Notes under the pieces: generated by a model | The model's database searches: none | Told to the model about the DNA's origin: nothing | The model's input: the letters and a program-made list of their open reading frames with translations, nothing else | Part shown: positions 1 to 40,979 of the stretch, in pieces | Position numbering within the stretch: position 1 is the first letter of the stretch | Layout of the letters: every line of letters begins with the position of its first letter | Assembly: GCA_004321885.1 (NCBI GenBank) | Contig: SCQK01000008.1 | Location: 1-44,042 of the forward strand | DNA: 44,042 nucleotides | Direction of reading: 5' to 3' | Source: Patescibacteria group bacterium | Lineage (GTDB): Bacteria > Patescibacteriota > Patescibacteriia > Magasanikbacterales > GWA2-37-8 | Translations under genes and position numbers: made by a program

Positions 1-1299
1 TACAGTTTTTTTAATCAAATCAACCAAATTTGGGTGATAGTGTTCATATTGATTTTTTCCTTCTTTATTTAAATATATTTTAAACCACTCTGGATGGGAA
101 CTGCGATAGTAATCGGCCATGCCAGCAATTGTTTTGAATCCGGTGTTCATTTCTTTGGCCAACCCGCCGTTAGTCATCCATCCTTCCGGCGCTATTTCAC
201 CTCTTTCATCCGCTTTCTGTTTAATCAAATTTATCAAGTCATGGTGATAATGTTCTGATGGTCTTGCTTTTTTATCTAAGTATATTTTAAACCACTCTGG
301 ATGATATCGGCGATGAATTTGGGCTAAGGATCGTACGAAATTCCAACTTACCCCCAATAAAACAGCCACCCCACCATTAGTCATCCATCCTTCCGGCGCT
401 AATTCACCCCTTTCTTCTATATTTCTTTTTATTAGATTAATTAAATCTGGATGAAAATGCTCGTTTGGTTTATGTGCCTTGTCTAAGTATATTTTAAACC
501 ACTCTGGATGGGAACTGCGATAGTGATCGGCCATGTCAGCAATTGTTTTGCATCCGGTGTTCATTTCTTTGGCCACCTCCCTATTAGTCATCCATCCTTC
601 CGGCGCCAACTCCCTTTCTTCTATATTTCTTTTTATTAGATTAATTAAATCTGGATGAAAATGCTCGCGGGCGCTTTTACTGGATTTTTCTAAATACATT
701 TGAAACCATTCAGGATGAGAATGGCGATGTGGTGCTGCAAGTAATTTTATACTTGAATTACTAATATCTAATATTTCAGCTAATCCATTATTGGTTTTCC
801 AATCATCTGGTGCTGTGGTTCCCCTGTTAGATAGTGTCAGTTTTATTAAGTCGATTAAATTTGGATGGTAATGTTCGGTTGGCTTATTTGATTTGTCTAG
901 GTATGTTTTAAACCATTCTGGGTGCGAATTGCGATAAGCGTTTGCTAAATTATTGATTATTTTTCTTCCGGCTTTAAGTTCTCTCTCTAAACCAAAATTT
1001 GTAAACCAGCCGTTAGGAGGCTGTGGTACCCTTTTGTTTAGGTACTCTCTTATTAGATTTATCAGATTCGGATGTAAATATTCGTGTTTATTCTGTCTAT
1101 TTCCTAGATATATCTTAAACCATTCTGGGTGAGAATCGCGATAAGAATTAGCCGTTGACTCTATGAGATAGGAACTAACATTAAAAGATTTCGCCACCCC
1201 GTTATTAGTCATCCATCCTTCCGGAGCCCTTTCGGCTTTCTCTGTTTTTTCAATTGTTTGTACTACCGGTGTTATACCTCCTTCTGGTTTTCTATTCAT
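1..1299 (-). CDS. Partial (3' end beyond the window) tandem-repeat protein. It has at least 6 copies of a roughly 80-aa repeat (…APEGWMTNxGxAKxxN…YRxSHPEWFKIYLDKxxKPxEHxHPxLIxLIK…). Each repeat contains an HTH-like W-x-T-x-x-x-A motif.
   Basis: A minus-strand ATG at 1299 (the plus strand reads 'cat' at 1297-1299). The frame stays open to position 1. The roughly 240-bp DNA repeats are near-identical, for example 70-190 versus 490-600. The ORF track omitted it because it runs off the window edge. Confidence 0.5.
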   Translation of the reverse strand, partial: MNRKPEGGITPVVQTIEKTEKAERAPEGWMTNNGVAKSFNVSSYLIESTANSYRDSHPEWFKIYLGNRQNKHEYLHPNLINLIREYLNKRVPQPPNGWFTNFGLERELKAGRKIINNLANAYRNSHPEWFKTYLDKSNKPTEHYHPNLIDLIKLTLSNRGTTAPDDWKTNNGLAEILDISNSSIKLLAAPHRHSHPEWFQMYLEKSSKSAREHFHPDLINLIKRNIEERELAPEGWMTNREVAKEMNTGCKTIADMADHYRSSHPEWFKIYLDKAHKPNEHFHPDLINLIKRNIEERGELAPEGWMTNGGVAVLLGVSWNFVRSLAQIHRRYHPEWFKIYLDKKARPSEHYHHDLINLIKQKADERGEIAPEGWMTNGGLAKEMNTGFKTIAGMADYYRSSHPEWFKIYLNKEGKNQYEHYHPNLVDLIKKTV

Positions 1300-1357
1300 A
1301 TCTTAGTGTTTATTATGGCTATATTTTACCTTTTTTATAGCACCGTGTCCATTAATG

Positions 1358-1913: not shown

Positions 1914-1927
1914 GGACGATTGGCGAA

Positions 1928-1964
1928 AGGGATTCCTCCCCGCCCTGGGCGGGTCGGAATGACA
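1928..1964. repeat. P6-family element (gggattcYtccccgcccYgggcRggtcRgaatgaca).
   Basis: A near-identical copy at 3108-3143 and an inverted partial copy at 28543-28578. Confidence 0.6.
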
Positions 1965-1970
1965 AAACCT

Positions 1971-2914: not shown

Positions 2915-3101
2915 GCACTGGCGACAATTCAAGTGTATTTGTGGAAGTGAGGTATCGGGCTTTTGGCCCTTAATTCCTCCACTGTGCCGCAACGGTAATG
3001 GTCGCCTTCGGCGACCGAGTCCGGTCTTCAAATATACTAAATCTCCCGAGCAGGAAATATTGTTTTCGCGTCAATTTCTGCTCGGCAGAAATTTTTTTGT
3101 T

Positions 3102-3716
3102 ATGAAAGGGATTCTTCCCCGCCCCGGGCAGGTCAGAATGACAATCGGGATGTTGATTTTGCTGATTTTAATCGCGATAGCGAGCGGGGTGTGGTTGTTG
3201 TTGGCAGAACAGAAAGATGCGAATACCCCTCTCTCTGTCTCTCCCCTAAAGGGGGAGAGAAGTTTGGATGCCTCTCCCCCTCCTGACATTCAGGCTCCAC
3301 AGCCCCGACGTAAAGTCGGGGACTATGGAGCCAGCCTCGTTACCCCTCCCCAACCCTCCTCCCGAAACAAGTTCGGGACAAGCTCTTATAAAGTGGAGGG
3401 TACGGCCACGAGCGCGCCGGTCGTTGGCGCGAAAATGCTCATCGGCGGGCAAGAGTTTATTTTTTCCGTCCCCGCGGGCGCCACGGTTTATGACGCCATG
3501 AAACAGCTGGCGGATGAGAAAAAAATATTTTTCAGCGGCAAAGAATACGCGGGCATGGGATTTTTTGCGGAAGAAATAAACGGCTTGCAAAACGGTGACG
3601 GCGGCAAGTATTGGATTTATTATGTCAACGGCCAGCAGGCAAAAGTAGGAGTCTCAAGTTATTTAATTAAATCAAGTGACATAATTTCTTGGGTGTATGA
3701 AAACGAAAAATTTTAG
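3102..3716 (+). CDS. DUF4430-like (transcobalamin-like C-terminal domain) membrane-anchored protein. The start is ambiguous among ATGs at 3102, 3138 and 3150.
   Basis: N-terminal TM (MLILLILIAIASGVWLLLA). The C-terminus (GKYWIYYVNGQQAKVGVSSYLIKSSDIISWVYE) matches the DUF4430 pattern. The linker contains two in-frame palindromic elements. The ATG at 3138 lies inside a P6 element. Confidence 0.55.
   Translation: MKGILPRPGQVRMTIGMLILLILIAIASGVWLLLAEQKDANTPLSVSPLKGERSLDASPPPDIQAPQPRRKVGDYGASLVTPPQPSSRNKFGTSSYKVEGTATSAPVVGAKMLIGGQEFIFSVPAGATVYDAMKQLADEKKIFFSGKEYAGMGFFAEEINGLQNGDGGKYWIYYVNGQQAKVGVSSYLIKSSDIISWVYENEKF
3108..3143. repeat. P6-family element; it overlaps the probable start codon.
   Basis: Compare the copy at 1928-1964. 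Confidence 0.6.
3226..3262. repeat. P1 palindromic element, in-frame inside the CDS (it encodes …PLSVSPLKGERS…).
   Basis: cccctctctctgtctctcccc-taaag-ggggagagaag. Confidence 0.65.
3295..3335. repeat. P2 hairpin element (gctccacagccccgac-gtaaa-gtcggggactatggagc), in-frame inside the CDS (it encodes …APQPRRKVGDYGAS…).
   Basis: A second copy lies at 40567-40606, intergenic. Confidence 0.65.
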
Positions 3717-13664: not shown

Positions 13665-13831
13665 AAATATTGTTCTGGATTCCGGTCGCCTGCGGCGACT
13701 GGAATGACAGAGTAATGTGGTGCAAACTCCCGACTGAATCGGGATCCCACGTTGCCCCGATTATATAATAAAGAAGGTTGTTTTGTCAAGATGTTGCGAA
13801 AAAGCGCGTTTTAGGTTAGAATATTGAAAAT

Positions 13832-14888: not shown

Positions 14889-16142
14889 ATGCGCTACTCG
14901 CAACTTTTCGGGAAAACCAGTAAAACTGCGCCGGCCGACGCCGACAGCGTCAATGCCCAGCTCTTAACCAAGGGCGGGTTTATTGCCAAGCAGATGGCCG
15001 GTGTTTATAATTATCTGCCGTTGGGGCTTCGTGTTTTAACAAAAATTCAAAATATCATCCGTGAGGAGATGAACGCAATCGGCGGAAATGAAATACTGAT
15101 GCCCGCGTTGACGTTGGAAGAAAGTTATAAAGAAACCGGAAGAGACGTCGTCTTGGCCGATATACTTTTTAAGAGCGAAGGCCGTGATGGAAGCAAAATG
15201 GTTCTCAATCCAACCTGCGAAGAAGTAATTACGCCGCTGGTAAAAAAATTTGTCTTTTCCCATCGCGATTTGCCGCTGGCGGTCTACCAGATACAAAACA
15301 AGTTTCGCAACGAGCCGCGCGCCAAATCCGGTTTGCTTCGCGGGCGCGAATTCAACATGAAGGATTTGTATTCTTTTCATAAAGACGAAAATGATTTGAA
15401 TGAGTATTATGAAAAAGCCAAGCAAGCGTATTTTAATATCTACAATCGCGTGGGGTTGGGTGATATTACCGTCTTAACTTATGCTTCCGGCGGGGCTTTC
15501 AGCAAATACTCTCATGAGTTTCAAACTTTAACCGATATCGGCGAGGACACGATTTATTTGTGCGAGAAATGCAAAGTGGCCGTAAATAAAGAAATTATTG
15601 ACGAGCAAAAAGCCTGTCCTTCTTGCGGAAATAAAAAATTGATTGAACAAAAAGCTGTTGAAGTCGGTAATATCTTTAAATTGCGGACGAAGTTTTCCGA
15701 TGCTTTTTCATTTTATTATGCTGATGAAAACGGCAAGCAAAAAATAGTTGAAATGGGGACGTATGGTATTGGCCCGTCGCGACTGATGGGCGCGCTGGTG
15801 GAAGTTTTCCACGATGACAAGGGAATAATTTGGCCCGAAGCCGTGGCGCCGTATCAATATCATTTGCTCACTATCGGCAAAGAAGCTGAAGCGGCCAAAG
15901 CCGGCGAGAAGTTATACGCCGATTTGCTGAAAAAAGATACGGAAGTGTTGTATGACGACCGCGACGCTTCGCCCGGCGCCAAACTGGCAGACGCCGACCT
16001 GCTCGGCATCCCCACGCGTTTGGTAATATCAAAAAAGACATTAGAAAAAAATAGTGTGGAAGTGAAGAAAAGAAATGAGAAGGAAGCGAAATTGGTCGCG
16101 CTGTCTGTCATTGCGAGCGAAGCGAAGCAATCCCAAACTTAA
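14889..16142 (+). CDS. proS: Prolyl-tRNA synthetase, compact form of 417 aa with no editing insertion. It carries a Cys4 insert (CEKC…CPSC).
   Basis: N-terminus MRYSQLFGKT…, class II motifs. The last 14 codons are supplied by a P3 repeat element. Confidence 0.85.
   Translation: MRYSQLFGKTSKTAPADADSVNAQLLTKGGFIAKQMAGVYNYLPLGLRVLTKIQNIIREEMNAIGGNEILMPALTLEESYKETGRDVVLADILFKSEGRDGSKMVLNPTCEEVITPLVKKFVFSHRDLPLAVYQIQNKFRNEPRAKSGLLRGREFNMKDLYSFHKDENDLNEYYEKAKQAYFNIYNRVGLGDITVLTYASGGAFSKYSHEFQTLTDIGEDTIYLCEKCKVAVNKEIIDEQKACPSCGNKKLIEQKAVEVGNIFKLRTKFSDAFSFYYADENGKQKIVEMGTYGIGPSRLMGALVEVFHDDKGIIWPEAVAPYQYHLLTIGKEAEAAKAGEKLYADLLKKDTEVLYDDRDASPGAKLADADLLGIPTRLVISKKTLEKNSVEVKKRNEKEAKLVALSVIASEAKQSQT
16098..16137. 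repeat. P3-family half element (gtcattgcgagcgaagcgaagcaatccc) forming the 3' end of proS.
   Basis: It matches the left arms at 17556, 17650, 18522, 21402 and 40884. Confidence 0.65.
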
Positions 16143-16158
16143 TGTGTTAAACCCTCCT

Positions 16159-17553
16159 ATGTCCGAACTCAAACCACCCTCCACGGAAGAATTGGCAAAA
16201 ATGCAAGAATTGGCAGAAACGCTTAGAAAGACGGTTGAGGAAGAGCGGCAGAAACCCCCGCAAAGGTATAGAAAGTTCAGCCTGGCGGAAAAAAATGCTC
16301 AAAGCGAAGAGGACAAGAAAACGGGAGTCGAGGATTTTTTTAGCAATCCGGCTTTGAAGATATCGGAAACGTCGGATAACGATCCTGATGCCGACAAAAT
16401 TTTGTCCTCTCTATCTCTTCTCCCCGAGTCCTTCCAGGTGCTTTGGGACAAAATGGGCGGCTCGTCACCCGTCAACGCCGGTTCCAGCGAACGGAAGCAA
16501 ATAGAATTCTTGGAATTTATCGACGAAATCAAGGATTCCCACTTTTTATCCCTCTTCCAGCACTTTTTAGATAGTAACACCTGGTCTCTCCAGGAATACG
16601 CCCAAAAAATTACCTCGTTTTCTCAAAATCGAGCCATCACCCTCACAACCAAAGAAGCCGAGCAGGCCACGATTTTTCAAACCACCAATGAAGACCAAAC
16701 ATTTCAAACCAAATCCAAAAAAGAACAGCAAGAAATTATAGACCAGGCCAAAACCGAGGCCCAGGAAGCCGCGGAACTGGGCATGGAAATGCTCCTTATC
16801 GCCGCGGACAAAAAAGCCCAGGGGATGGTTGAAAAAGTCATCAGCAACCAAATCAATATTGACACCAAAGAAGGAAAAGAAGAATTTATCAAACAATGGC
16901 AAGAACAATGCCCCAACACCCCCATGCCGGCCGTGCCGGGCAAGAGCTGGGGTTGGAATTACTTGTCTTGGCTGAAAAACAATAAGGTTGTCAGCAACCT
17001 GGAACCGGAAGCAGATCAAGTAGACGAGCCTCAGCCAATCAAACCCCGATTCCATCGGCACCAAACACTCTGGGTGGACAAATGGCAAGAAGAAGATTAC
17101 AACGCGCCCCAAGCACAGGCCTCGCATACCTCCACTCTCGTCAAGCAATTCTTTCCGGAAAGAAACAGCGATAGAGTGGTTGAAATCAACAGAGAAGCAA
17201 TAGATCAAGCCCTGTGGGAAATTCCCATGCGTTGGGGAGGGCAACCCCCTCGCCGGATAAAATCCAAGGATCATGAAGAGTTTTTGCGTCAACATGGCTT
17301 CAACCCCGACGAATACGAACTGCGCCTCATAATCCACGACGAATACGCTCGCGGAGCCGGTGTCAAAAACTGGGGACAAAAAAATTTCTGGACCCATTTT
17401 GACCATTATTTTCTTGGGGACGACGGCGAGCGCGACGGTCTGAGTGGCGGGCGCCGCGACTCTGGCGGGCCTTCCCATGTGGACGCCTACTGGCGTGACG
17501 ATACGGATGGCTATCTCGGTGTCCGTCTGGTTCTCTCGCGCATACAAAAGTAA
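16159..17553 (+). CDS. Hypothetical protein of about 465 aa; acidic, with coiled-coil in the N-terminal half and no recognised domain.
   Basis: Long clean ORF; the 326-aa minus-strand ORF across it is shadow. The start is uncertain between ATGs at 16159 and 16201; there is no obvious SD. Confidence 0.45.
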   Translation: MSELKPPSTEELAKMQELAETLRKTVEEERQKPPQRYRKFSLAEKNAQSEEDKKTGVEDFFSNPALKISETSDNDPDADKILSSLSLLPESFQVLWDKMGGSSPVNAGSSERKQIEFLEFIDEIKDSHFLSLFQHFLDSNTWSLQEYAQKITSFSQNRAITLTTKEAEQATIFQTTNEDQTFQTKSKKEQQEIIDQAKTEAQEAAELGMEMLLIAADKKAQGMVEKVISNQINIDTKEGKEEFIKQWQEQCPNTPMPAVPGKSWGWNYLSWLKNNKVVSNLEPEADQVDEPQPIKPRFHRHQTLWVDKWQEEDYNAPQAQASHTSTLVKQFFPERNSDRVVEINREAIDQALWEIPMRWGGQPPRRIKSKDHEEFLRQHGFNPDEYELRLIIHDEYARGAGVKNWGQKNFWTHFDHYFLGDDGERDGLSGGRRDSGGPSHVDAYWRDDTDGYLGVRLVLSRIQK

Positions 17554-17555
17554 CT

Positions 17556-17642
17556 GTCATTGCGAGCGAGTCGCAGACGAGCGCGGCAATCCCATTCGTG
17601 TTTGGGGTTGCTTCACTCCACTTCGTTCCGTTCGCAATGACA
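17556..17642. repeat. Complete P3 MITE-like palindrome (gtcattgcgag…cgcggcaatccc / ggggttgcttc…cgcaatgac).
   Basis: Solo copy with both arms present. Confidence 0.65.
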
Positions 17643-17649
17643 ATCGTCT

Positions 17650-18056
17650 GTCATTGCGAGGTCGCCTGCGGCGACCGAAGCAATCCCATACAATCAAGTA
17701 TGCCGAAACGCAAGCAGTATTATGTTTACATAATGACCAACAAGAATAATACTGTTTTGTATACCGGTGTTACCAACAGTTTAGTCCGTAGAGCCTACGA
17801 ACACAAAAGCAAGTTCAGTTTTTATGAAAGTTTTACAAAAAAATACAATATCAATAAACTCGTCTATTACGAATGTTTTGATAATGTGAATAACGCGATT
17901 ACCAGAGAAAAACAGATAAAAGCCGGTTCGCGAAAAAAGAAAATAGATCTAATCAATAAAATGAATCCTATTTGGCGGGATTTGTATGGAGAACTTTACC
18001 CTGATTAGGGATGGGATTGCTTCGTCGGTCGCCTGCGGCGACCTCCTCGCAATGAC
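17650..18056 (+). mobile_element. GIY-YIG nuclease gene enclosed by P3-type terminal inverted repeats: IR-L 17650-17687, CDS 17700-18008, IR-R 18013-18056.
   Basis: IR-L is gtcattgcgag-gtcgcctgcggcgac-cgaagcaatccc. IR-R is gggattgcttcg…gtcgcctgcggcgacc…ctcgcaatgac, its near-exact reverse complement, including the shared core gtcgcctgcggcgac. Confidence 0.5.
17700..18008 (+). CDS. Small GIY-YIG nuclease-superfamily protein (YhbQ/UPF0213-like, about 102 aa).
   Basis: YYVYIMTNKNNTVLYTGVTNSLVRRAYEH, the GIY-YIG core. The ORF-track start at 17598 lies inside repeat DNA; the ATG at 17700 is taken as the start. Confidence 0.7.
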   Translation: MPKRKQYYVYIMTNKNNTVLYTGVTNSLVRRAYEHKSKFSFYESFTKKYNINKLVYYECFDNVNNAITREKQIKAGSRKKKIDLINKMNPIWRDLYGELYPD

Positions 18057-18061
18057 AGTAA

Positions 18062-18099
18062 AAAAATCCCCTCCGACGTAACGTCGGAGGGGATTTTGT
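18062..18099. terminator. Bidirectional terminator hairpin (aaatcccctccgacgtaacgtcggaggggattt), flanked by A7 and T4.
   Basis: It lies between the GIY-YIG gene (plus) and the small membrane-protein gene (minus). Confidence 0.5.
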
Positions 18100-18521: not shown

Positions 18522-18608
18522 GTCATTGCGAGGAGGTCTGCAGACCGACGCGGCAATCCCAATGTTGAAAGGGATTGCTTCGGTCGCCACAGGCGACCTC
18601 GCAATGAC
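18522..18608. repeat. P3 MITE-like palindrome, an 'empty' copy with no cargo.
   Basis: It lies exactly between the trpS stop and the start of the 18106..18510 gene. Confidence 0.65.
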
Positions 18609-18611
18609 AGA

Positions 18612-19625
18612 TTAAAGTCCTATTAAATTTCTAACCCCTTCCATTGTTTTGTCCGCCACCTTTTGCGCTTTGGCCGCGCCGTCTCTCATTATCTTGTCCA
18701 GCTTGGCCGGATTTTTTAACAGCTCGGCGCGTTTGGCGCGGAAATCGGCGAAATAATTGGCAATCGCTTTGGCCAATTCGTCTTTCAGCTCACCGTATCT
18801 TATTGTGCCGTCCTTTTCCGCTTTGACAAATCTTTCGTAGCTGGATTCCCCCGTACTTAGTCGGGGGAATGACAGACCGGATTCGAACTTTTGCAGGAGC
18901 ATCAACAGGTTTATCACCCCGGGCGCTTGGCCGCCGCCTTCGGTGGCCGTCACGGCGCGTTTGATTTTTTGTTCTATCACGCCCGGCTCGTCAGCCATCT
19001 CAATCACGTGGTCGGCGCCCAAACTTTTGCTCATTTTTTTATTGGGTTCCAGCAAGCTCATTACTTTGGGCGTTTCGGTGAGCAGATGTTTTGTTTCCGG
19101 AAAATACGCCCCGTATTTTTTATTGAACCAGCGAGCAATGTCGCGGGTCAGCTCTACGTGTTGGATTTGGTCTTGGCCCACCGGCACCATTTCGCCTTTG
19201 TACATTAATATATCCGCCGCCTGCAAAATCGGATAGGTAAAAAGTCCGGCCGTGGACATTTTAAGTTGCGCTGTTTTGTCTTTATATTGAGTCATGCGCT
19301 CCAGTTCGCTCATCGGGGTGAGACAGTTCAAAATCCAGGCCAGCTCGGCGTGGCCGGCGATACGCGATTGAAAATAAAAAGTCGTTTTCTTCGGGTCAAT
19401 GCCGGCGGCCAAAAGTTCAGCGGCCGTTGTCCGCGTTTGCGCGCGCAGTTCGTCGGGTGTCATTTTTCCAGAAAGCGAATGCAGGTCGGCGATAAAAATA
19501 TACATTTCATACTTGCCCGAGTTTTGTAAATCCACCCAATTTTTTACCGCGCCCAAATAATTGCCGATATGCAGGTTGCCCGTGGGCTGAATGCCCGAGA
19601 CGATGATGTGTTTGTGATTGGACAT
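18612..19625 (-). CDS. trpS: Tryptophanyl-tRNA synthetase.
   Basis: HIGNYLG (HIGH-class) and KMSKS motifs. An in-frame P2-type hairpin at 18848-18871 encodes …SFPRLSTGES…. Confidence 0.9.
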   Translation of the reverse strand: MSNHKHIIVSGIQPTGNLHIGNYLGAVKNWVDLQNSGKYEMYIFIADLHSLSGKMTPDELRAQTRTTAAELLAAGIDPKKTTFYFQSRIAGHAELAWILNCLTPMSELERMTQYKDKTAQLKMSTAGLFTYPILQAADILMYKGEMVPVGQDQIQHVELTRDIARWFNKKYGAYFPETKHLLTETPKVMSLLEPNKKMSKSLGADHVIEMADEPGVIEQKIKRAVTATEGGGQAPGVINLLMLLQKFESGLSFPRLSTGESSYERFVKAEKDGTIRYGELKDELAKAIANYFADFRAKRAELLKNPAKLDKIMRDGAAKAQKVADKTMEGVRNLIGL

Positions 19626-20135: not shown

Positions 20136-21345
20136 ACGATTGCCATTCTTTTTTTAATTTCAAAAATTTGTCTTCGGCGATGGCCGCGCGGATTTGTTTC
20201 ATCAAATCCAAAAAGAAATGCAGATTGTGAATGGTGGCCAGGCGCATGGCCGAGAGCTCCCCGGCGTTAAAAAGATGGCGCAAGTAGGCGCGGGAATAAT
20301 GTTGGCAGGTGTGACAGGCGCAGTTTTTGTCTATCGGCTTGGCGTCGCTAGCGAACCGCGAGTTGGTGATGTTTATGCGATACCCCTCCCCAGCCCTCCC
20401 CTTATTAAGGGGAGGGAGAAAGAGCATGCCGTGGCGGGCCAAGCGGGTGGGGGCCACGCAGTCAAACATGTCTATGCCGCGTTCCACCACTTCAAAAATG
20501 TCCAAAGGCGACAGCCCCAGACCCATGCTGTAGTGGGGCTTGTCGGGCGGAAGCAGGGGGTAGACCCAATCCAAAATTTCTTTGGTCGCGGACATGTTGT
20601 AGCCGATAGATTCGCCGCCGACGGCGATGCCGTCAAAATCCATGGCGGAAATATGGCGCGCTGATTCTTCACGCAAGTCGCGGTGATTGGAGCCCTGGAC
20701 GATGCCGAAGAGATGTTGCCGATACCCCTCCCTCACCCTCCCCTTATAAAGGGGAGGGGATGATAGATGATATTCCAAACATCTTTTCGCCCATCTGTGC
20801 GTGCGTTCCATTGCTTCGCGCGCATACTTAGCATCAACATTGTCCGGCGCGCATTCGTCAAAGGCCATGATAATGTCCGCGTCCAGTTTGTGCTGGATTT
20901 TTATTGACGACTCGGGCGTGAAGCGATGCGTGGAGCCGTCTATGTGGCTTTTGAAGGTGACACCGTCCTTGTCTATTTTCGCCAAACGCTCTTTGCGAAA
21001 CTCCACCCCTTGTCCCTCCCCTAATAGGGGAGGAATTTGTTTGCCCAAACTGAAAACCTGGAATCCGCCGCTGTCGGTAAGCATTGGTCTGTCCCAATTC
21101 ATGAATTTGTGCAAGCCGCCCAGTTTGGCGACAATATCTTCGCCCGGGCGTAGATGCAAATGGTAAGTGTTTCCTAAAATTATTTGCGCGTTCAAATCGC
21201 GCAAATCAAAAGAATCCAGGGATTTTACGGTCGCTTGCGTGCCCACGGGCATGAAAGACGGTGTTTCAATGTCGCCGTGCTCGGTATGAATTACGCCCGT
21301 CCGCGCTCGGCTGTTTTTGTCTTGATGAAACGTTTCAAAAAACAT
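20122..21345 (-). CDS. tgt: Queuine tRNA-ribosyltransferase (tRNA-guanine transglycosylase). It carries three in-frame palindromic-element insertions.
   Basis: Full-length Tgt similarity including the zinc site CxCxxC…H (CACHTCQHYSRAYLRHL). The insertions encode [25 protein letters not shown] and PPLLGEGQG. Confidence 0.9.
   Translation of the reverse strand: MFFETFHQDKNSRARTGVIHTEHGDIETPSFMPVGTQATVKSLDSFDLRDLNAQIILGNTYHLHLRPGEDIVAKLGGLHKFMNWDRPMLTDSGGFQVFSLGKQIPPLLGEGQGVEFRKERLAKIDKDGVTFKSHIDGSTHRFTPESSIKIQHKLDADIIMAFDECAPDNVDAKYAREAMERTHRWAKRCLEYHLSSPPLYKGRVREGYRQHLFGIVQGSNHRDLREESARHISAMDFDGIAVGGESIGYNMSATKEILDWVYPLLPPDKPHYSMGLGLSPLDIFEVVERGIDMFDCVAPTRLARHGMLFLPPLNKGRAGEGYRINITNSRFASDAKPIDKNCACHTCQHYSRAYLRHLFNAGELSAMRLATIHNLHFFLDLMKQIRAAIAEDKFLKLKKEWQSYAKN
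20384..20421. repeat. P1 palindromic element, in-frame in tgt.
   Basis: cccctccccagccctcccc-ttattaa-ggggagggagaaag. Confidence 0.75.
20725..20770. repeat. P1 palindromic element, in-frame in tgt.
   Basis: cccctccctcaccctcccc-ttataaa-ggggagggga. Confidence 0.75.
21003..21034. repeat. P1 palindromic element, in-frame in tgt.
   Basis: ccctcccc-taata-ggggagg. Confidence 0.7.
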
Positions 21346-21401: not shown

Positions 21402-21489
21402 GTCATTGCGAGGACCCGCCCGGGGCGGGGACGAAGCAATCCCATTCATAAGCGCGAGAGATTGCTTCGGCCTACGGCCTCGCAATGAC
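21402..21489. repeat. P3 MITE-like palindrome in the tgt/uvrD divergent intergenic region.
   Basis: gtcattgcgag…cgaagcaatccc … gattgcttcgg…ctcgcaatgac. Confidence 0.65.
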
Positions 21490-21494
21490 AACCT

Positions 21495-23711
21495 GTGTAT
21501 ATGATTGATTTTTCCAGCGACCTCAATGACGAACAATTAAATGTCGTTCTTAATGGCGACGGCCCGTGCTTGGTGTTGGCCGGAGCCGGCAGCGGCAAGA
21601 CGCGCGCCATTGTTTACCGTGCGGCTTATCTTTTGGAACAGGGCGTGAAGCCGGAAAATATTTTGCTCGTGACTTTTACCAACAAGGCGGCAGGGGAGAT
21701 GAAAGAAAGGGTGCGCGGACTCACCGGCAACGAGGGCTTGCCCTGGGCCGGTACTTTTCACAGCATCGGCAACAGAATACTGCGCCACCACGCCATGGCT
21801 TTGGGTTACATGTCCAATTTTACGATTTTGGATTCCGATGACAGCGAGTCATTGATAAAAATTTGCGCGAAAGACTCCCACCCCCCCTCAATCCCCCCCT
21901 CGGGCAGGGGGGGAGGATGGACCGGTGGTAAATTTCCCTCGGCCGGTAATTTGCAGGCGATAATCAGCTTTTCTCGCAACGCGGAAATGGCGCTTGCTGA
22001 AGTGTTGGAAACGCGCTGGCCCCAGTATGAGATGTGGGCCGACCCCCTGGCGGAAATCGCCAAGGAATACGAAAAAAGAAAATTACAGGCCAACGCCATG
22101 GATTTTGACGACTTGCTGGTGAACTTTTCGCGTTTGCTAAACGACCCGAAGATTTTGAAAAAATATTCCGGGCAGTTTCAATATATTCTGGTTGACGAGT
22201 ATCAGGATACGAATAAAATTCAGGCGTCCATCGTGAAAAAATTGGCCACCGAGCACGGAAATATTTTGGTCGTTGGCGACGACGCGCAAAGCATTTATTC
22301 TTTCCGCGCGGCCGACATAGAAAACATCTTGCGTTTTGAAAAAGATTTTCCCAAAGCGAAAATTTTCAAGCTGGAAACCAATTACCGCAGTAGCCAGGAA
22401 ATTTTGGACGTGGCCAACAACGTCATCGCCAACAATCCAAAACAGATAAAAAAGGAATTACATACCCCTCCCCAACCCTCCCCTTATAAAGGGGAGGGAG
22501 ATAGCGTTTCCTCCCCCTTTATAAGGGGGAGGTTAGGTGGGGGTGTCAAGCCCGAACTGCATCCGAAAATTGACCAAAGCGACGAGGCAAATTTCGTGGC
22601 CGAGAAAATCGCTTCGCTGATTCGCGGCGGAGTGGAACCGACCGAGCTGGCCGTGCTTTTCCGCGCGGCGCATCACAGCCAGCAATTGGAGCTTGAACTA
22701 ATGCGCATAGGCATTGATTACGATTATCGCGGCGGCCTGCGCTTTTTTGAACGCTCGCACGTGAAAGACGCCCTGGCCTACTTGCGCATACTGAACAATC
22801 TGGCCGACACGACCGCCTGGCTGCGCGTGCTTTTGTTTGAAGACGGCATCGGTCCGGTGGCGGCCGGCAAAATCGTGGATTATATAAGGAAGGTGGAAAA
22901 CGTGGAAGAAGTGGCCAAGGCCGGAGAGGTTTTGGGCGACAAAGCGCAGACGGGCTGGAATAATTTTTTACAAATTTGGAACAGCTTGCTGAATGTGGGG
23001 CCGGGCAGTCCGGCGCAACTGGTGGAGGCGATTTTGGCTTCGCCTTACCGCGATCGGCTGGAAGACGATTTTGGCAACGGCAACCAGCGGGCCGAAGATT
23101 TGAAACAGCTGGCGATTTTCGCGCGCAAATACGAAAAGCTGGATGACTTTTTATCCGAGGCGGCTTTGCAAGAGGCGTTTAGCATGCAGAGGAAAAAAGA
23201 AAGCGCCAGCAAAGCGCACGAGGGAAAAATTGTTCTTTCTACTATACATCAGGCCAAGGGGCTGGAGTGGTCCGGCGTGTTTGTGATTAATTTGCTGGAC
23301 GGGCAGTTTCCCAACGAACGCGCTTTGCGGGAAAACGGCGGGCTGGAAGAAGAGCGGCGCTTGTTTTATGTGGCGGTTACCCGCGCCAAAAAATATTTGT
23401 ATTTGTCGTATCCGCTGGCCGGCCCGGCCCGAGGCGGACAAAGCGGGGGCTGGGGAGACAGCGCGTCCGCGCCGAGCTCGTTTTTGGGTGAAATCAGTCC
23501 GGATTTGCTGGAAGATAGTTCGCTATTGCTTAAGCCGAGTTCGGTTTTTGATTTCTCTTCCCTTGCTAAGGGGAGAGATAGTGAGGGGTCGATCACATAC
23601 GTGGACGACCCGGATGCCGAGACCCGCCCCCACACCAAAGATTTTGGTGTGGGGGCCCGTCCCTTCCGCTTCAAACCCGGCAGTTTTTTGCGCGACGTGG
23701 GAGATTTATAA
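21495..23711 (+). CDS. uvrD: UvrD/PcrA/Rep-family ATP-dependent DNA helicase. It carries four in-frame palindromic-element insertions.
   Basis: Walker A GAGSGKT and helicase motifs across the length. The start is a GTG at 21495 or an ATG at 21501. Confidence 0.9.
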   Translation: MYMIDFSSDLNDEQLNVVLNGDGPCLVLAGAGSGKTRAIVYRAAYLLEQGVKPENILLVTFTNKAAGEMKERVRGLTGNEGLPWAGTFHSIGNRILRHHAMALGYMSNFTILDSDDSESLIKICAKDSHPPSIPPSGRGGGWTGGKFPSAGNLQAIISFSRNAEMALAEVLETRWPQYEMWADPLAEIAKEYEKRKLQANAMDFDDLLVNFSRLLNDPKILKKYSGQFQYILVDEYQDTNKIQASIVKKLATEHGNILVVGDDAQSIYSFRAADIENILRFEKDFPKAKIFKLETNYRSSQEILDVANNVIANNPKQIKKELHTPPQPSPYKGEGDSVSSPFIRGRLGGGVKPELHPKIDQSDEANFVAEKIASLIRGGVEPTELAVLFRAAHHSQQLELELMRIGIDYDYRGGLRFFERSHVKDALAYLRILNNLADTTAWLRVLLFEDGIGPVAAGKIVDYIRKVENVEEVAKAGEVLGDKAQTGWNNFLQIWNSLLNVGPGSPAQLVEAILASPYRDRLEDDFGNGNQRAEDLKQLAIFARKYEKLDDFLSEAALQEAFSMQRKKESASKAHEGKIVLSTIHQAKGLEWSGVFVINLLDGQFPNERALRENGGLEEERRLFYVAVTRAKKYLYLSYPLAGPARGGQSGGWGDSASAPSSFLGEISPDLLEDSSLLLKPSSVFDFSSLAKGRDSEGSITYVDDPDAETRPHTKDFGVGARPFRFKPGSFLRDVGDL
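21877..21920. repeat. P1-variant palindrome, in-frame in uvrD (it encodes SHPPSIPPSGRGGGW).
   Basis: cccaccccccctcaatcccccc-tcgggca-gggggggagg. Confidence 0.65.
22465..22545. repeat. Two tandem P1 elements in opposite orientation, in-frame in uvrD (they encode PSPYKGEGDSVSSPFIRGRLGGGV).
   Basis: Copy a at 22465-22502 and copy b at 22509-22545. Confidence 0.75.
23555..23590. repeat. P1 element (CTCTC variant), in-frame near the uvrD C-terminus (it encodes SLAKGRDSEGS).
   Basis: ctcttccc-ttgctaa-ggggagag…gagggg. Confidence 0.65.
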
Positions 23712-29100: not shown

Positions 29101-29125
29101 GTCATCCTGAATTTATTTCAGGATC
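29101..29125. repeat. P5 hairpin (GTCATCCTGAA…TTCAGGATC).
   Basis: Second copy at 37111-37135. Confidence 0.5.
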
Positions 29126-29166
29126 TCCGTTCGGTCGGAGGCGGGGCAGACGATCCCATATCATTT

Positions 29167-29203
29167 CCTCCCCCTTAATAAGGGGGAGGTTAGGAGGGGG
29201 TAA
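29167..29203. repeat. P1 palindromic element.
   Basis: cctccccc-ttaataa-gggggaggttaggaggggg. Confidence 0.65.
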
Positions 29204-29320
29204 ATTGGATCGCCTGCCTCGCCGGAATCCTTGGAGAGAAAAGCGAGTCGGCGCTATTGAGAGAGTAGGCCTGGAGCACTTTGACAATTTATCCACTAAA
29301 GCTGGCAACTGTCGTTTTTT

Positions 29321-29354
29321 CTCCCCTCAATAAGGGGAGGACGAAGGAGGGGTG
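29321..29354. repeat. P1 palindromic element.
   Basis: ctcccctc-aataa-ggggaggacgaaggagggg. Confidence 0.65.
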
Positions 29355-36207: not shown

Positions 36208-36340
36208 AATGGCGGTATGTCCGCCCGCGTTAGGCCGCAGTGGCGCGTAAGAAATATCTGCGACACACTCGGTGTTTGAGGAACGGCTTGCACAAGCGCT
36301 CCTCTTCACCCGCATAGCGACAAAGGAGATTTCTCGCTTA

Positions 36341-36390
36341 CCCCTCACCAACTCTCCCCTTATAAAGGGGAGAGAGAATGAGGGTAAAGG
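36341..36390. repeat. P1 palindromic element at the right edge of the GC-rich island.
   Basis: cccctcaccaactctcccc-ttataaa-ggggagagagaatgaggg. Confidence 0.6.
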
Positions 36391-37001: not shown

Positions 37002-37245
37002 ATATTTGTCAATACTTAACAAAGATATAAACATGGCAGTTCTTGACACTTTTTCCCCCTTTCTATATACTATTGCCAAGAACGTTACCCCGAGTAATCG
37101 GGGCACCCGAGATCCTGAAACAAGTTCAGGATGACAGGGAACTCGTGGCTGAGCTTCATCGTTCAGCTTTTTGTTAACGACAGAAATTTAAGAATTAAAT
37201 TTCTTGTCAGTTAACAATCCGCCTTTGGCGGATATTCATTATTTA

Positions 37246-37280
37246 CCCCTCCCTGCCCTCCCCTTATTAAGGGGCGGGGA
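37246..37280. repeat. P1 palindromic element immediately upstream of rpsL. Its right arm may serve as the SD.
   Basis: cccctccctgccctcccc-ttattaa-ggggcgggg; the ATG follows 13 nt later. Confidence 0.65.
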
Positions 37281-37292
37281 AAATTAAGAATT

Positions 37293-40676: not shown

Positions 40677-40795
40677 ATATGTGTTAGATTTTCTGTTTTT
40701 ATGCTCGCAGGCGTAAAGGCGATATATTTGCGTTTGAAGCACAAATTATTTTGTGTATTTTTTAAGCACTCGTTAAGGCGGGCGTTCTCTTTGAA

Positions 40796-40835
40796 TCCCT
40801 CCCCTGTTAGGGGAGGGACAAAGGGTGGGGTATGT
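40796..40835. repeat. P1 palindromic element.
   Basis: tccctcccc-tgtta-ggggagggacaaagggtgggg. Confidence 0.6.
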
Positions 40836-40862: not shown

Positions 40863-40979
40863 GTCATTCCGAAGACGCGTTTTGTCATTGCGAGCGAAGC
40901 GAAGCAATCCCATGCGTATTTAAGAAATGCCCTGCTTTTTTGCAAGGGATTGCTTCGTCGCTTCGCTCCTCGCAATGAC
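40863..40979. repeat. P3 MITE-like palindrome (with an extra partial left arm) in the 5' leader of the surface-protein gene. It ends 1 nt before the ATG.
   Basis: gtcattgcgagcgaagcgaagcaatccc…gggattgcttcgtcgcttcgctcctcgcaatgac. Confidence 0.65.

What the first reader, a model, noticed from the sequence alone, without database searches (positions are those of the whole stretch)
17556..18099. A GIY-YIG nuclease gene sits exactly between the two arms of a P3-type inverted repeat, a candidate autonomous partner for the P3 MITEs
IR-L (17650-17687, gtcattgcgag-gtcgcctgcggcgac-cgaagcaatccc) ends 12 nt before the ATG of a 102-aa YhbQ-like GIY-YIG protein. IR-R (18013-18056) begins 4 nt after its stop and is the reverse complement of IR-L, including the internal palindrome gtcgcctgcggcgac. 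Cargo-free copies with the same arms occur at 17556-17642 (directly adjacent), 18522-18608, 21402-21489 and 40863-40979. A half copy at 16098-16137 forms the proS C-terminus. A nuclease gene inside TIRs, accompanied by empty copies elsewhere, is the classic autonomous / non-autonomous MITE relationship. A GIY-YIG protein as the putative mobilising enzyme would be unusual.
Basis: partly seen in the sequence, partly recalled or inferred. Interest (0 to 1): 0.75.

Follow-up and report, generated by a model that had tools for sequence, protein, structure and literature searches.

The report
Ssn hairpin nuclease with its repeats
This is a small GIY-YIG nuclease gene bracketed by the hairpin-forming DNA repeats it most likely recognises, a member of the Ssn nuclease / hairpin-repeat system published in 2025, so the pairing is real but not new, and whether the nuclease actually moves the repeats is still unproven.

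Summary
A 102-aa GIY-YIG ORF (17700-18008) lies between inverted arms at 17650-17687 and 18013-18056. The arm box GTCATTGCGAG occurs 11 times in the window against 0.72 expected.

The pairing is not a chance insertion. In 80 homologous loci from many phyla, 75 have a same-type arm within 200 nt of the gene and 54 have arms on both sides.

The system is already described: Chenal et al. 2025 (PMC11893778), the Ssn family. These are single-domain GIY-YIG enzymes that bind a hairpin repeat (NTS/SRM) in single-stranded DNA and cut a few nt 5' of it. Their genes are flanked by these repeats, which occur in many copies per genome.

The window protein is 43% identical to the gonococcal SsnA ortholog and keeps the catalytic Tyr, Tyr and Glu. 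The arms keep the determinants GTC + AT-stem + C, but they are a composite subtype that the published SRM search pattern misses.

The transposase/MITE reading stays a hypothesis, and that paper already raised it. Supporting hints: the gene sits at different sites in relatives, a 30-nt hairpin is inserted in-frame in trpS, and arms differ between near-identical strains. Against it: no target-site duplications, and the only demonstrated Ssn activity is hydrolytic cleavage.

Verdict: new member of a known kind, moderate-to-low interest.

The parts
17700..18008 (+). ssn gene: 102-aa single-domain GIY-YIG nuclease of the Ssn family
   Evidence: Pfam PF01541 E=7e-14, residues 6-81. 43% identity and E=1e-26 to the 94-aa N. 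gonorrhoeae SsnA ortholog. Y10, Y21 and E70 align with the Nm catalytic residues Y6, Y17 and E64 (PMC11893778).
17650..17687 (+). IR-L: forward hairpin arm (P3-type SRM) ending 12 nt before the ATG
   Evidence: As DNA it folds to -11.2 kcal/mol, z=-3.6: a 5-bp ATTGC/GCAAT outer stem, an internal loop and a 7-bp inner stem.
18013..18056 (-). IR-R: reverse hairpin arm starting 4 nt after the stop codon
   Evidence: Folds to -10.1 kcal/mol, z=-2.6.
18063..18097 (.). Bidirectional intrinsic-terminator-like hairpin just outside IR-R, between ssn and the convergent 134-aa membrane-protein gene
   Evidence: 16-bp stem with T runs on both strands.
17556..17641 (.). Gene-free doublet (forward arm 17556-17593, degenerate reverse arm 17603-17641), directly after the stop of the 492-aa ORF and 8 nt before IR-L
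   Evidence: (I8). The right arm is decayed (GTCATTGCGAA...GCAACCCC) and does not fold.
18522..18608 (.). Gene-free doublet between the 134-aa gene start and the trpS stop. Its reverse arm (18571-18608) is 94% identical to IR-L over 47 nt.
   Evidence: (I1).
21402..21489 (.). Gene-free doublet in the tgt|uvrD spacer, the same spacer that holds the ssn unit in the relative L082
40884..40979 (.). Gene-free doublet with a 34-nt spacer
16107..16134 (+). Single short arm (identical to 40884-40911) that forms the last codons of proS
   Evidence: (D11).
18844..18873 (-). Canonical NTS-like hairpin (TGTCATTCCCCCGACTAAGTACGGGGGAATCC) inserted in-frame in trpS. It is the only site in the window that matches the published SRM search pattern.
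   Evidence: regex. A 10-aa insertion GLSFPRLSTG is absent from 5 relatives. Folds to -9.6 kcal/mol, z=-4.2.
13678..13708 (-). Related hairpin of the GTCATTCC...GGAATCC subtype. Its inner palindrome GTCGCCGCAGGCGAC is the one found in IR-R.
1925..1965 (-). Related hairpin of the GTCATTCCGA...GGAATCCC subtype, with a second copy at 3104-3144
   Evidence: D16.
29101..29125 (+). Related hairpin of the GTCATCCTGAA...TTCAGGATC subtype, with a second copy at 37111-37135 on the minus strand
   Evidence: (I17).

Best explanation
The locus is an Ssn-SRM module. The 102-aa protein is a member of the Ssn family of single-domain GIY-YIG endonucleases. The arms (consensus T-GTCATTGCGAG-[variable GC-rich stem-loop]-CGAAGCAATC-[T/C]C) are its cognate hairpin repeats.

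Inferred mechanism, by homology to the characterised Neisseria and Wolbachia enzymes: when DNA is single-stranded (replication, repair, DNA uptake), each arm folds into a hairpin. Ssn binds the hairpin in one orientation, reading the 5' GTC, the AT-initiated stem and the C after the stem. It then hydrolyses the strand a few nucleotides 5' of the hairpin.

In the layout here (forward arm, gene, reverse arm) the predicted cut sites lie just outside the unit, one on each strand. The dispersed singlets and alternating doublets are further substrates.

Shown here: family membership by sequence, conserved catalytic residues, hairpin potential of the arms, enrichment of the arms, and a cross-phylum gene-repeat linkage.

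Inferred, not shown: cleavage specificity, the biological role in this Patescibacteria genome (control of ssDNA recombination or uptake, or repeat propagation), and whether Ssn spreads the repeats.
For: - Protein: Pfam GIY-YIG E=7e-14. tblastn to a N. gonorrhoeae chromosome gives E=9e-17 at 89% coverage. That ORF is 94 aa and sits among NTS repeats CGTCATTCCCGC..GCGGGAATC. Pairwise identity is 43%, E=1e-26. Y10 and E70 are invariant and Y21 nearly invariant in 12 sequences including the gonococcal one. They correspond to the Y6A/Y17A/E64A mutants that abolish cleavage (PMC11893778).
- Repeats in the window: 11 arms against 0.72 expected. Most arms fold with the same architecture.
- Repeats around homologs: 80 loci carry 421 arms against 7-14 in shuffles. 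75 of 80 have an arm within 200 nt of the gene and 54 of 80 have arms on both sides.
- Conserved arm positions: GTC at 98-100% and the closing ..GCAATC at 96-100%. These coincide with the positions that mutagenesis in the paper found critical: the three nt upstream of the palindrome for cutting and the C after it for binding.
- Variable inner segment: 321 distinct sequences among 407, yet they fold better than shuffles, p=2.6e-16. This fits the paper's finding that the loop can be replaced or extended.
- The paper describes the same gene architecture and many copies per genome.
Against: - The published degenerate SRM pattern matches none of the 11 P3 arms. Cognate recognition of this subtype is therefore extrapolated, not demonstrated.
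- The CDD assignment (cd10448) could not be run.
- The comparison used the gonococcal ortholog, not the exact Nm protein CAX49033.1.
- In Neisseria the gene-proximal arms face the opposite way (GTCAT ends towards the gene), so the geometry differs.
- Several other hairpin subtypes share the window. No experiment tells which of them this enzyme cuts.
Confidence: 0.85

Rival explanations
1. Autonomous/non-autonomous transposon pair. The arm-ssn-arm unit is a mobile element. Ssn acts as its mobilising enzyme on single-stranded hairpin ends. Gene-free singlets and doublets are non-autonomous copies mobilised in trans.
For: - The predicted cut sites lie outside both arms in the commonest geometry: forward arm, gene, reverse arm is the nearest-arm pattern in 37 of 62 two-sided loci, against 25% expected.
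- ssn sits at different spacers of an otherwise conserved uvrD|tgt-rlmH-trpS block in the window and in L082. The spacer filled in L082 holds an empty doublet in the window.
- The relatives with 74% TrpS identity have neither the gene nor a single P3 arm in 20 kb each.
- Ssn is 74% identical between the window and L082, whereas their TrpS proteins are only 45% identical. Ssn is 65-72% identical across phyla, which suggests horizontal spread.
- A 30-nt hairpin is inserted in-frame in trpS, with empty sites in five relatives.
- Two 96%-identical WOR-3 genomes differ by an extra arm and a swapped inner segment.
- Two paralogous copies in one Bacteroidetes MAG share homology only over about 455 nt that contain the gene and its upstream arm.
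- Chenal et al. raise the same idea in their Discussion.
Against: - There are no target-site duplications and no conserved target beyond T(-1) and [T/C]C(+1,+2).
- I know of no GIY-YIG enzyme that forms a covalent intermediate or catalyses strand transfer, and only cleavage has been shown for Ssn.
- Each strand of a unit carries only one cleavable hairpin orientation, so one enzyme cut per strand cannot excise it.
- The two arms of a doublet usually carry unrelated inner segments, and 36 of 37 gene-flanking pairs differ. Doublets are therefore not simple deletion derivatives of one unit.
- The gene is single-copy in the window and syntenic across Nostoc species, so inheritance is mostly vertical at short range.
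- No phage copies, and few plasmid copies.
Confidence: 0.27
2. Homing-type selfish gene. Gene-free doublets are empty target sites. Ssn nicks at the hairpins, and recombinational repair from an ssn-filled copy then copies the gene between two arms, in the manner of GIY-YIG homing endonucleases.
For: - GIY-YIG enzymes include classical homing endonucleases (established knowledge; listed).
- Filled and empty states of the same tgt|uvrD spacer are seen in L082 and in the window.
- In most loci the gene lies between arms or next to one.
Against: - Ssn does not cut dsDNA.
- The arms are short (about 30-45 nt) with hypervariable centres, which makes them poor homology for repair.
- The gene is single-copy here, while arms are about ten-fold more numerous. 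Homing would tend to fill them.
- L082 and the window are too distant (TrpS 45%) to count as alleles.
Confidence: 0.08
3. The arms are mainly host regulatory or structural elements (REP-like: mRNA 3'-end stabilisers, terminators, nucleoid-protein sites). The nuclease gene is merely regulated by them or keeps their number in check.
For: - Arms sit at gene ends and in short intergenic spacers.
- No promoter-like site lies between the upstream gene and ssn, so the arms would be transcribed as 5' and 3' hairpins of the ssn message.
- Chenal et al. began from a regulatory hypothesis.
Against: - The arms lack T-tracts, and a separate canonical terminator follows IR-R.
- SsnA does not bind RNA.
- No Rfam family matches the arms.
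- Arms also sit inside coding sequence (proS end, trpS), where a regulatory role is implausible.
Confidence: 0.1
4. Chance juxtaposition: a MITE happened to insert around a resident GIY-YIG gene.
For: None beyond the single locus.
Against: The same juxtaposition occurs in 75 of 80 homologous loci from many phyla, and arms there are about 40-fold enriched over shuffles. The published survey gives the same result.
Confidence: 0.01

Closest known systems
Ssn nucleases with NTS/SRM hairpin repeats (SsnA of Neisseria meningitidis; Chenal et al., Nat Commun 2025, PMC11893778)
   Same: - A single-domain GIY-YIG protein of about 95-100 aa, 43% identical to the gonococcal ortholog, with the catalytic Y/Y/E conserved.
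- The gene is bracketed by oriented hairpin repeats that share a 5' (C/T)GTCAT, a stem starting ATT.., and a closing ..AATC(C/T).
- The repeats are dispersed in many copies, mostly intergenic.
- The loop region tolerates replacement.
   Different: - The stem is ATTGC/GCAAT plus a conserved GAG/CGAA internal loop and a second, hypervariable GC-rich stem-loop, rather than the simple ATTCCCGC/GCGGGAAT hairpin.
- The published SRM search pattern does not detect these arms (0 of 11).
- The gene-proximal arms point outward-cutting (forward arm, gene, reverse arm), whereas at the gonococcal locus they are reversed.
- The host is a non-competent-looking, reduced-genome Patescibacteria MAG, so the transformation-control role shown in Neisseria may not apply.
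REP/BIME repeats with RAYT (REP-associated tyrosine transposases) and REPIN doublets
   Same: - A single-copy nuclease gene flanked by inverted hairpin repeats.
- The same repeats are scattered as singlets, inverted doublets and alternating arrays (171 alternating against 43 tandem neighbours).
- Inheritance is vertical within a genus, and there are no target-site duplications.
   Different: - The enzyme is a GIY-YIG hydrolase, not an HUH/Y1 transposase, so it lacks the covalent 5'-phosphotyrosine chemistry that explains cut-and-rejoin.
- The two arms of a doublet usually differ in their centres, so doublets are not near-perfect long hairpins like REPINs.
IS200/IS605 single-strand transposons
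   Same: Subterminal hairpins are recognised in ssDNA, and cleavage occurs at a short distance from the hairpin.
   Different: - IS200/IS605 hairpins at both ends lie on the same strand, whereas here they lie on opposite strands.
- The catalytic family is different, and no transposition has been demonstrated.
GIY-YIG homing endonucleases (I-TevI type) and UPF0213/YhbQ proteins
   Same: The GIY-YIG catalytic core.
   Different: - There is no separate DNA-binding domain, and there is no intron or intein context.
- Homing endonucleases cut dsDNA.
- UPF0213 structures (1ZG2, 1YWL) match only at E=0.005-0.11. The UPF0213-like gene in relative L083 has no arms.

Membership tests
Ssn nuclease family (Chenal et al. 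2025) | Single-domain GIY-YIG protein of about 90-150 aa with no accessory domain | tested here: met
   The protein is 102 aa. PF01541 covers residues 6-81 and no other Pfam or NCBIfam family hits it.
Ssn nuclease family (Chenal et al. 2025) | BLAST match to Neisseria SsnA at E<1e-10 with >=75% coverage | tested here: met
   tblastn to a N. gonorrhoeae chromosome: E=9e-17, 89% coverage. Pairwise: 43% identity, E=1e-26 over 94 aligned positions. Caveat: the gonococcal 94-aa ORF flanked by NTS was used as a proxy for Nm CAX49033.1.
Ssn nuclease family (Chenal et al. 2025) | Catalytic residues equivalent to Nm Y6, Y17 and E64 | tested here: met
   Y10, Y21 and E70 align with them. R31, Y33 and H35 are also invariant in 12 sequences.
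Ssn nuclease family (Chenal et al. 2025) | Top CDD assignment cd10448 (GIY-YIG_unchar_3) | not testable with these tools
   No CDD/rpsblast tool is available. NCBIfam gave no hit.
Ssn nuclease family (Chenal et al. 2025) | Gene flanked on both sides by SRM repeats as defined by the published pattern HGTCWYN(0-2)YYVSBRHN(0-5)WNVSBRGN(0-2)RNCYNB | tested here: not met
   The pattern matches 0 of 11 P3 arms. Its only hit in the window is 18841-18874 inside trpS.
Ssn nuclease family (Chenal et al. 2025) | Gene flanked by oriented 20-50 nt hairpin repeats that carry the functional determinants (three nt GTC 5' of the stem, a palindromic stem, C immediately 3' of the stem) | tested here: met
   IR-L and IR-R are 38 and 44 nt and read GTC-ATTGC...GCAAT-C. 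Hairpin folds have z=-3.6 and -2.6. The determinants are 96-100% conserved in 129 gene-flanking arms. The determinants themselves come from the mutagenesis.
Ssn nuclease family (Chenal et al. 2025) | The repeat is over-represented in the host genome | tested here: met
   11 arms in 44 kb against 0.72 expected. Only the window could be examined, not the whole genome.
Ssn nuclease family (Chenal et al. 2025) | Site-specific cleavage of ssDNA only, 5' of the hairpin | not testable with these tools
   This needs purified protein and oligonucleotides.
MITE with autonomous IS partner | Terminal inverted repeats shared by the gene-carrying copy and the gene-free copies | tested here: met
   The arm 18571-18608 is 94% identical to IR-L.
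MITE with autonomous IS partner | Target-site duplications or a defined target sequence at the element ends | tested here: not met
   The flanks of the five window elements share no direct repeat. Flank positions beyond -1 and +2 are unconserved in 430 arms. One possible exception is GAATCC on both sides of the trpS insertion, which is ambiguous.
MITE with autonomous IS partner | The encoded protein belongs to a class with demonstrated transposase (strand-transfer) activity | tested here: not met
   The protein is a GIY-YIG hydrolase. Only cleavage is reported for the family. No paper in the library reports Ssn-dependent transposition.
MITE with autonomous IS partner | Empty sites in relatives that demonstrate insertion | tested here: inconclusive
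   A clear empty site exists for the 30-nt hairpin in trpS (5 relatives). There is arm-number polymorphism between the 96%-identical genomes L059 and L062. No species-level relative of the window genome exists in the databases to test the P3 doublets themselves (the best TrpS match is 73%).
REP-RAYT / REPIN system | The associated gene is an HUH Y1 (IS200-like) transposase | tested here: not met
   The gene is GIY-YIG.
REP-RAYT / REPIN system | Hairpin repeats flank the gene in inverted orientation and form alternating clusters elsewhere | tested here: met
UPF0213 / YhbQ-type GIY-YIG | Close sequence match to characterised UPF0213 members | tested here: not met
   1ZG2 matches at E=0.005 and 1YWL at E=0.11. 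The UPF0213-like gene in L083 is only 39% identical and has no arms.

The most novel reading that the evidence does not exclude
The arm-ssn-arm unit is a genuine autonomous single-strand DNA transposon. Its mobilising enzyme would be a roughly 100-aa GIY-YIG hydrolase working with host ligation or replication functions. The singlets, the doublets and even the in-frame 30-nt gene insertions would be its non-autonomous offspring. That would make it a transposition chemistry distinct from the DDE, HUH, serine and tyrosine classes. The outward-cutting geometry of this P3 subtype would be the ancestral, still-mobile form of the system that is domesticated in Neisseria.
Probability: 0.25. Interest if true: 0.8.

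Novelty: new member of a known kind. Interest (0 to 1): 0.35.

Why it matters
This locus shows that the recently described Ssn nuclease / hairpin-repeat partnership extends into Patescibacteria (CPR).

It also shows that a very widespread repeat subtype, GTCATTGCGAG...GAAGCAATC, escapes the published search pattern. That subtype is shared by Cyanobacteria, Chloroflexi, Bacteroidota, WOR-3 and others. Published counts of Ssn-associated repeats are therefore probably underestimates.

These repeats write recurrent peptide tails and insertions into annotated proteins, for example ..VIASEAKQSQ at the proS end and GLSFPRLSTG inside TrpS. Recognising them improves annotation of CPR genomes.

The comparative hints of mobility collected here (relocated gene, in-frame insertion with empty sites, strain-level arm turnover) sharpen the one open question about the system: how the repeats spread. 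They also point to the outward-cutting P3 units as the best substrates for a transposition assay.

Tried and rejected
1. Literature search for the literal arm sequence returned only unrelated primers.
2. Searches combining GIY-YIG with MITE or with REPIN/RAYT found nothing linking them. The relevant paper surfaced only with 'GIY-YIG + flanked by / transposase / hairpin'. Its supplementary tables are not held, so I could not check whether P3-type arms appear in its curated SRM list.
3. My first generic hairpin finders, which needed a 6-7 bp perfect outer stem, missed the P3 arms because the outer stem is only 5 bp. I replaced them with a two-box pattern.
4. Exact look-up of the window TrpS in the contig index failed. 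Relatives were reached through a homology search instead.
5. No species-level relative exists (best TrpS 73%), so empty-site tests for the P3 doublets themselves were impossible.
6. I considered whether the doublet at tgt|uvrD is a deletion remnant of the ssn unit seen in L082. The spacer resemblance (about 15 of 21 nt by eye) is too weak and the genomes too distant, so I did not rely on it.
7. Rfam has no family for the arms.
8. Phage records hold no homolog. DNA-level search of plasmids found only the coding region of a Planktothrix homolog.
9. The idea that the two gene-flanking arms are kept identical was rejected: only 1 of 37 pairs share their inner segment. The matching inner palindrome in the window is an exception.
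Full report
**1. The observation**

An ORF at 17700-18008 (+) encodes 102 aa with a GIY-YIG domain (Pfam PF01541, E=7e-14, residues 6-81). NCBIfam gives no hit.

Twelve nt upstream of the ATG ends an arm at 17650-17687, GTCATTGCGAG-GTCGCCTGCGGCGAC-CGAAGCAATCCC. Four nt after the stop begins its inverted copy at 18013-18056.

The 5' box GTCATTGCGAG (<=1 mismatch) occurs 11 times in the window against 0.72 expected, and no shuffle reaches 11. The 3' box GCAATCCC occurs 11 times against 2.8 expected.

Gene-free inverted doublets lie at 17556-17641, 18522-18608, 21402-21489 and 40884-40979. One single arm at 16107-16134 supplies the last codons of proS.

Small corrections: the 40863 start includes a fragment of a different hairpin subtype, and the proS copy is a whole short arm rather than half an arm.

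**2. Anatomy of an arm**

All eleven arms share T-GTCATTGCGAG at the 5' end and CGAAGCAATC-CC at the 3' end. Between these lies a segment that differs from arm to arm, and in most arms it is a GC-rich palindrome.

Folded as single-stranded DNA, most arms adopt one architecture:
- a 5-bp outer stem ATTGC/GCAAT;
- a small internal loop formed by the conserved GAG and CGAA;
- a variable inner stem-loop.

IR-L folds to -11.2 kcal/mol (z=-3.6) and IR-R to -10.1 (z=-2.6). Arms whose centre is GCGAAGC fold weakly by the nearest-neighbour model. From my own knowledge, d(GCGAAGC) is a well-known unusually stable DNA mini-hairpin that such models do not capture.

A canonical bidirectional terminator at 18063-18097 lies just outside IR-R. 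No promoter-like site lies between the upstream gene and ssn. Rfam has nothing for the arms.

**3. Is the gene-repeat pairing chance?**

No. The protein has thousands of homologs and is 65-78% identical to proteins from unrelated phyla.

I fetched 80 homologous loci from species-representative genomes. They come from Cyanobacteria, Chloroflexi, Patescibacteria, Bacteroidota, Ignavibacteria, WOR-3, Elusimicrobia, Planctomycetes, Deltaproteobacteria and others. By eye, and then by pattern, nearly all carry the same arms next to the gene:
- 75 of 80 have an arm within 200 nt of the gene.
- 54 of 80 have a forward arm upstream and a reverse arm downstream.
- The median distance is 22 nt to the start and 19 nt from the stop. 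Often the stop codon is part of the arm.

These loci hold 421 arms, against 7-14 in shuffled versions.

The conserved positions are GTCATTGCGA (88-100%) and GCAATC (96-100%). The centre is hypervariable, with 321 distinct sequences among 407. It nevertheless folds better than shuffled controls (p=2.6e-16), and 115 of 433 arms contain GCGAAGC. That pattern fits selection for a hairpin rather than for a particular sequence.

**4. What it is: the Ssn/SRM system**

A literature search led to Chenal et al., Nat Commun 2025 (PMC11893778). They describe Ssn, a family of single-domain GIY-YIG proteins (cd10448; SsnA of N. meningitidis is 94 aa). Their main findings are:
- Ssn binds an oriented hairpin repeat, but only in single-stranded DNA. 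The repeat is NTS = CGTCATTCCCGCGMAVGCGGGAATCYRG, generalised as 'SRM'.
- It cuts a few nt upstream of the hairpin.
- The three nt 5' of the palindrome govern cutting. The C just 3' of it is most critical for binding. The loop can be replaced or extended.
- Y6A, Y17A and E64A abolish cleavage.
- 71% of homolog genes have an SRM nearby and 42% have one on both sides.
- 81% of genomes with more than 200 SRMs have the gene.
- In Neisseria the system lowers transformation by DNA that carries NTS.

Their Discussion notes that NTS-ssnA-NTS looks like an insertion sequence and draws the IS200/RAYT-REP parallel, without testing mobility.

**5. Membership tests**

*Protein.* A tblastn search of PLSDB hit two N. 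gonorrhoeae chromosomes deposited as plasmids (E=9e-17, 89% coverage). The ORF there is 94 aa and sits among canonical NTS repeats. Pairwise, the window protein is 43% identical to it (E=1e-26). Y10, Y21 and E70 align with the catalytic Y6, Y17 and E64. R31, Y33 and H35 are also invariant in a 12-sequence alignment that includes the gonococcal protein. Solved UPF0213/YhbQ-type structures match only at E=0.005-0.11, so 'YhbQ-like' is not the right label.

*Repeats.* The arms keep the functional determinants GTC + AT-stem + C. The published degenerate SRM pattern, however, matches none of them. Its single hit in the window is a canonical NTS-like hairpin inside trpS.

The P3 arms are therefore a composite subtype that the published search rule does not capture: a shorter outer stem, a conserved internal loop, and a variable second stem. 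The window also holds other subtypes (GTCATTCC..GGAATCC, GTCATCCTGAA..TTCAGGATC). Across subtypes the two halves of the stem change together (TTGC/GCAA, TTCC/GGAA, TCCTGAA/TTCAGGA), which again points to a hairpin.

The CDD assignment and the enzymology could not be tested.

**6. A difference in geometry**

In the window, and in 37 of the 62 loci with arms on both sides, the nearest arms are forward upstream and reverse downstream. Taking the published cut position, cleavage would fall just outside the unit on each strand.

At the gonococcal locus the nearest arms face the other way, so the cuts would fall between arm and gene.

Elsewhere, neighbouring arms mostly alternate in orientation (171 alternating against 43 tandem pairs within 100 nt), like REPs in BIMEs. 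Flanks are unconserved beyond T(-1) and [T/C]C(+1,+2), and I saw no target-site duplications.

**7. Is it mobile?**

Evidence for movement over evolutionary time:
- **Gene position.** The block uvrD|tgt-rlmH-trpS-membrane protein is conserved in Magasanikbacteria-like relatives. L082 has its ssn unit, with P3 arms, in the tgt|uvrD spacer. The window has only an empty doublet in that spacer and carries ssn beyond trpS and the adjacent membrane-protein gene.
- **Co-absence.** Four relatives with 74% TrpS identity have neither an Ssn-type gene nor a single P3 arm in 20 kb each. One of them has a UPF0213-type GIY-YIG gene without arms.
- **Unequal conservation.** Ssn of the window and of L082 are 74% identical and share a private 2-aa insertion, while their TrpS proteins are only 45% identical.
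- **Insertion in trpS.** The window TrpS carries a 10-aa in-frame insertion, GLSFPRLSTG. It is exactly the canonical hairpin at 18844-18873 and is absent from five relatives.
- **Strain-level turnover.** Two WOR-3 genomes that are 96% identical differ only in the downstream arm region, by one extra arm and a different centre. One of them has a premature stop in ssn.
- **Paralogs.** Two copies in one Bacteroidetes MAG share about 455 nt, limited to the gene and its upstream arm.

Evidence against a simple transposon:
- There are no target-site duplications.
- The enzyme class is hydrolytic.
- Each strand of a unit carries one cleavable hairpin orientation only.
- The two arms of a doublet, and 36 of 37 gene-flanking pairs, carry unrelated centres.
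- The gene is single-copy in the window and syntenic across Nostoc species.
- There are no phage copies and few plasmid copies.

**8. Verdict**

The inference that gene and repeats are partners is correct. The specific claim of a novel GIY-YIG-driven MITE system is not new as an idea and not demonstrated as a mechanism.

The locus is a new member of the published Ssn-SRM system. It comes from a Patescibacteria MAG (100% match to a deposited protein on a 44,042-bp contig) and uses a repeat subtype the published pattern misses.

The best-supported mechanism is hairpin-guided single-strand cleavage. The biological role here, and the way the repeats spread, remain open. I put about 0.25 on the reading that the unit is a true autonomous ssDNA transposon.

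Noticed in passing
window 18844-18873 (- strand), inside trpS 18612-19625: A 30-nt NTS-like hairpin is inserted in-frame in the essential tryptophanyl-tRNA synthetase gene. It adds GLSFPRLSTG, which five relatives lack. GAATCC occurs on both sides of the insert, which could be a target-site duplication or microhomology.
   Followed up: partly
window 20380-20422, 20722-20764, 21000-21037, 22462-22544, 23552-23589, 29158-29201, 29305-29353, 36338-36380, 37242-37284, 40794-40831 and others: A second abundant palindromic repeat family (ACCCCTCCCC..CTCCCCTTATAAAGGGGAGGG) is unrelated to the P3 arms. Several copies lie inside ORFs, where they encode motifs such as [11 protein letters not shown] and PSPYKGEGD in tgt and uvrD. 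They look like in-frame insertions into housekeeping genes.
   Followed up: no
window 1-1340: Diverged tandem repeats with a period of about 207 nt (69 codons) lie at the start of the window. They are probably a repetitive protein-coding gene on the minus strand.
   Followed up: no
window 16075-17553: The 492-aa ORF as listed starts inside the proS-end arm (MRRKRNWSRCLSLRAKRSNPK...). The real start is more likely the downstream M of MSELKPP. The arm creates spurious N-terminal and C-terminal peptide tails in automatic annotation.
   Followed up: no
window 13678-13708 (- strand): A hairpin of the GTCATTCC..GGAATCC subtype carries the same inner palindrome (GTCGCCGCAGGCGAC) as IR-R of the ssn unit. 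Inner stem-loops may be exchanged between subtypes.
   Followed up: no
L059 around position 245 compared with L062 (two WOR-3 MAGs, 96% identical): The ssn homolog in L059 has an in-frame TGA where L062 has GGC, so it is apparently a recent pseudogene. Its downstream arm region also differs from L062.
   Followed up: partly
L011 about 3030-3065, compared with L004 (Anabaena): A roughly 30-nt segment (TATCCCTGACGGGAGGCGTTAGCCATATGT) is inserted inside the downstream arm in one Anabaena genome and is absent from the otherwise 90%-identical arm in the other. It may be a nested small mobile repeat.
   Followed up: no
L058 1901-3462 and 2940-4501 (Gammaproteobacteria MAG): The ssn gene with its flanking arms is tandemly duplicated (96.5% identity, 1039-nt period) within a highly repetitive array.
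   Followed up: no
PLSDB records NZ_CP119140.1 and NZ_CP119142.1: Two 2.17-Mb Neisseria gonorrhoeae chromosomes are filed as plasmids in the plasmid collection. This was useful here because they gave access to the SsnA ortholog.
   Followed up: yes
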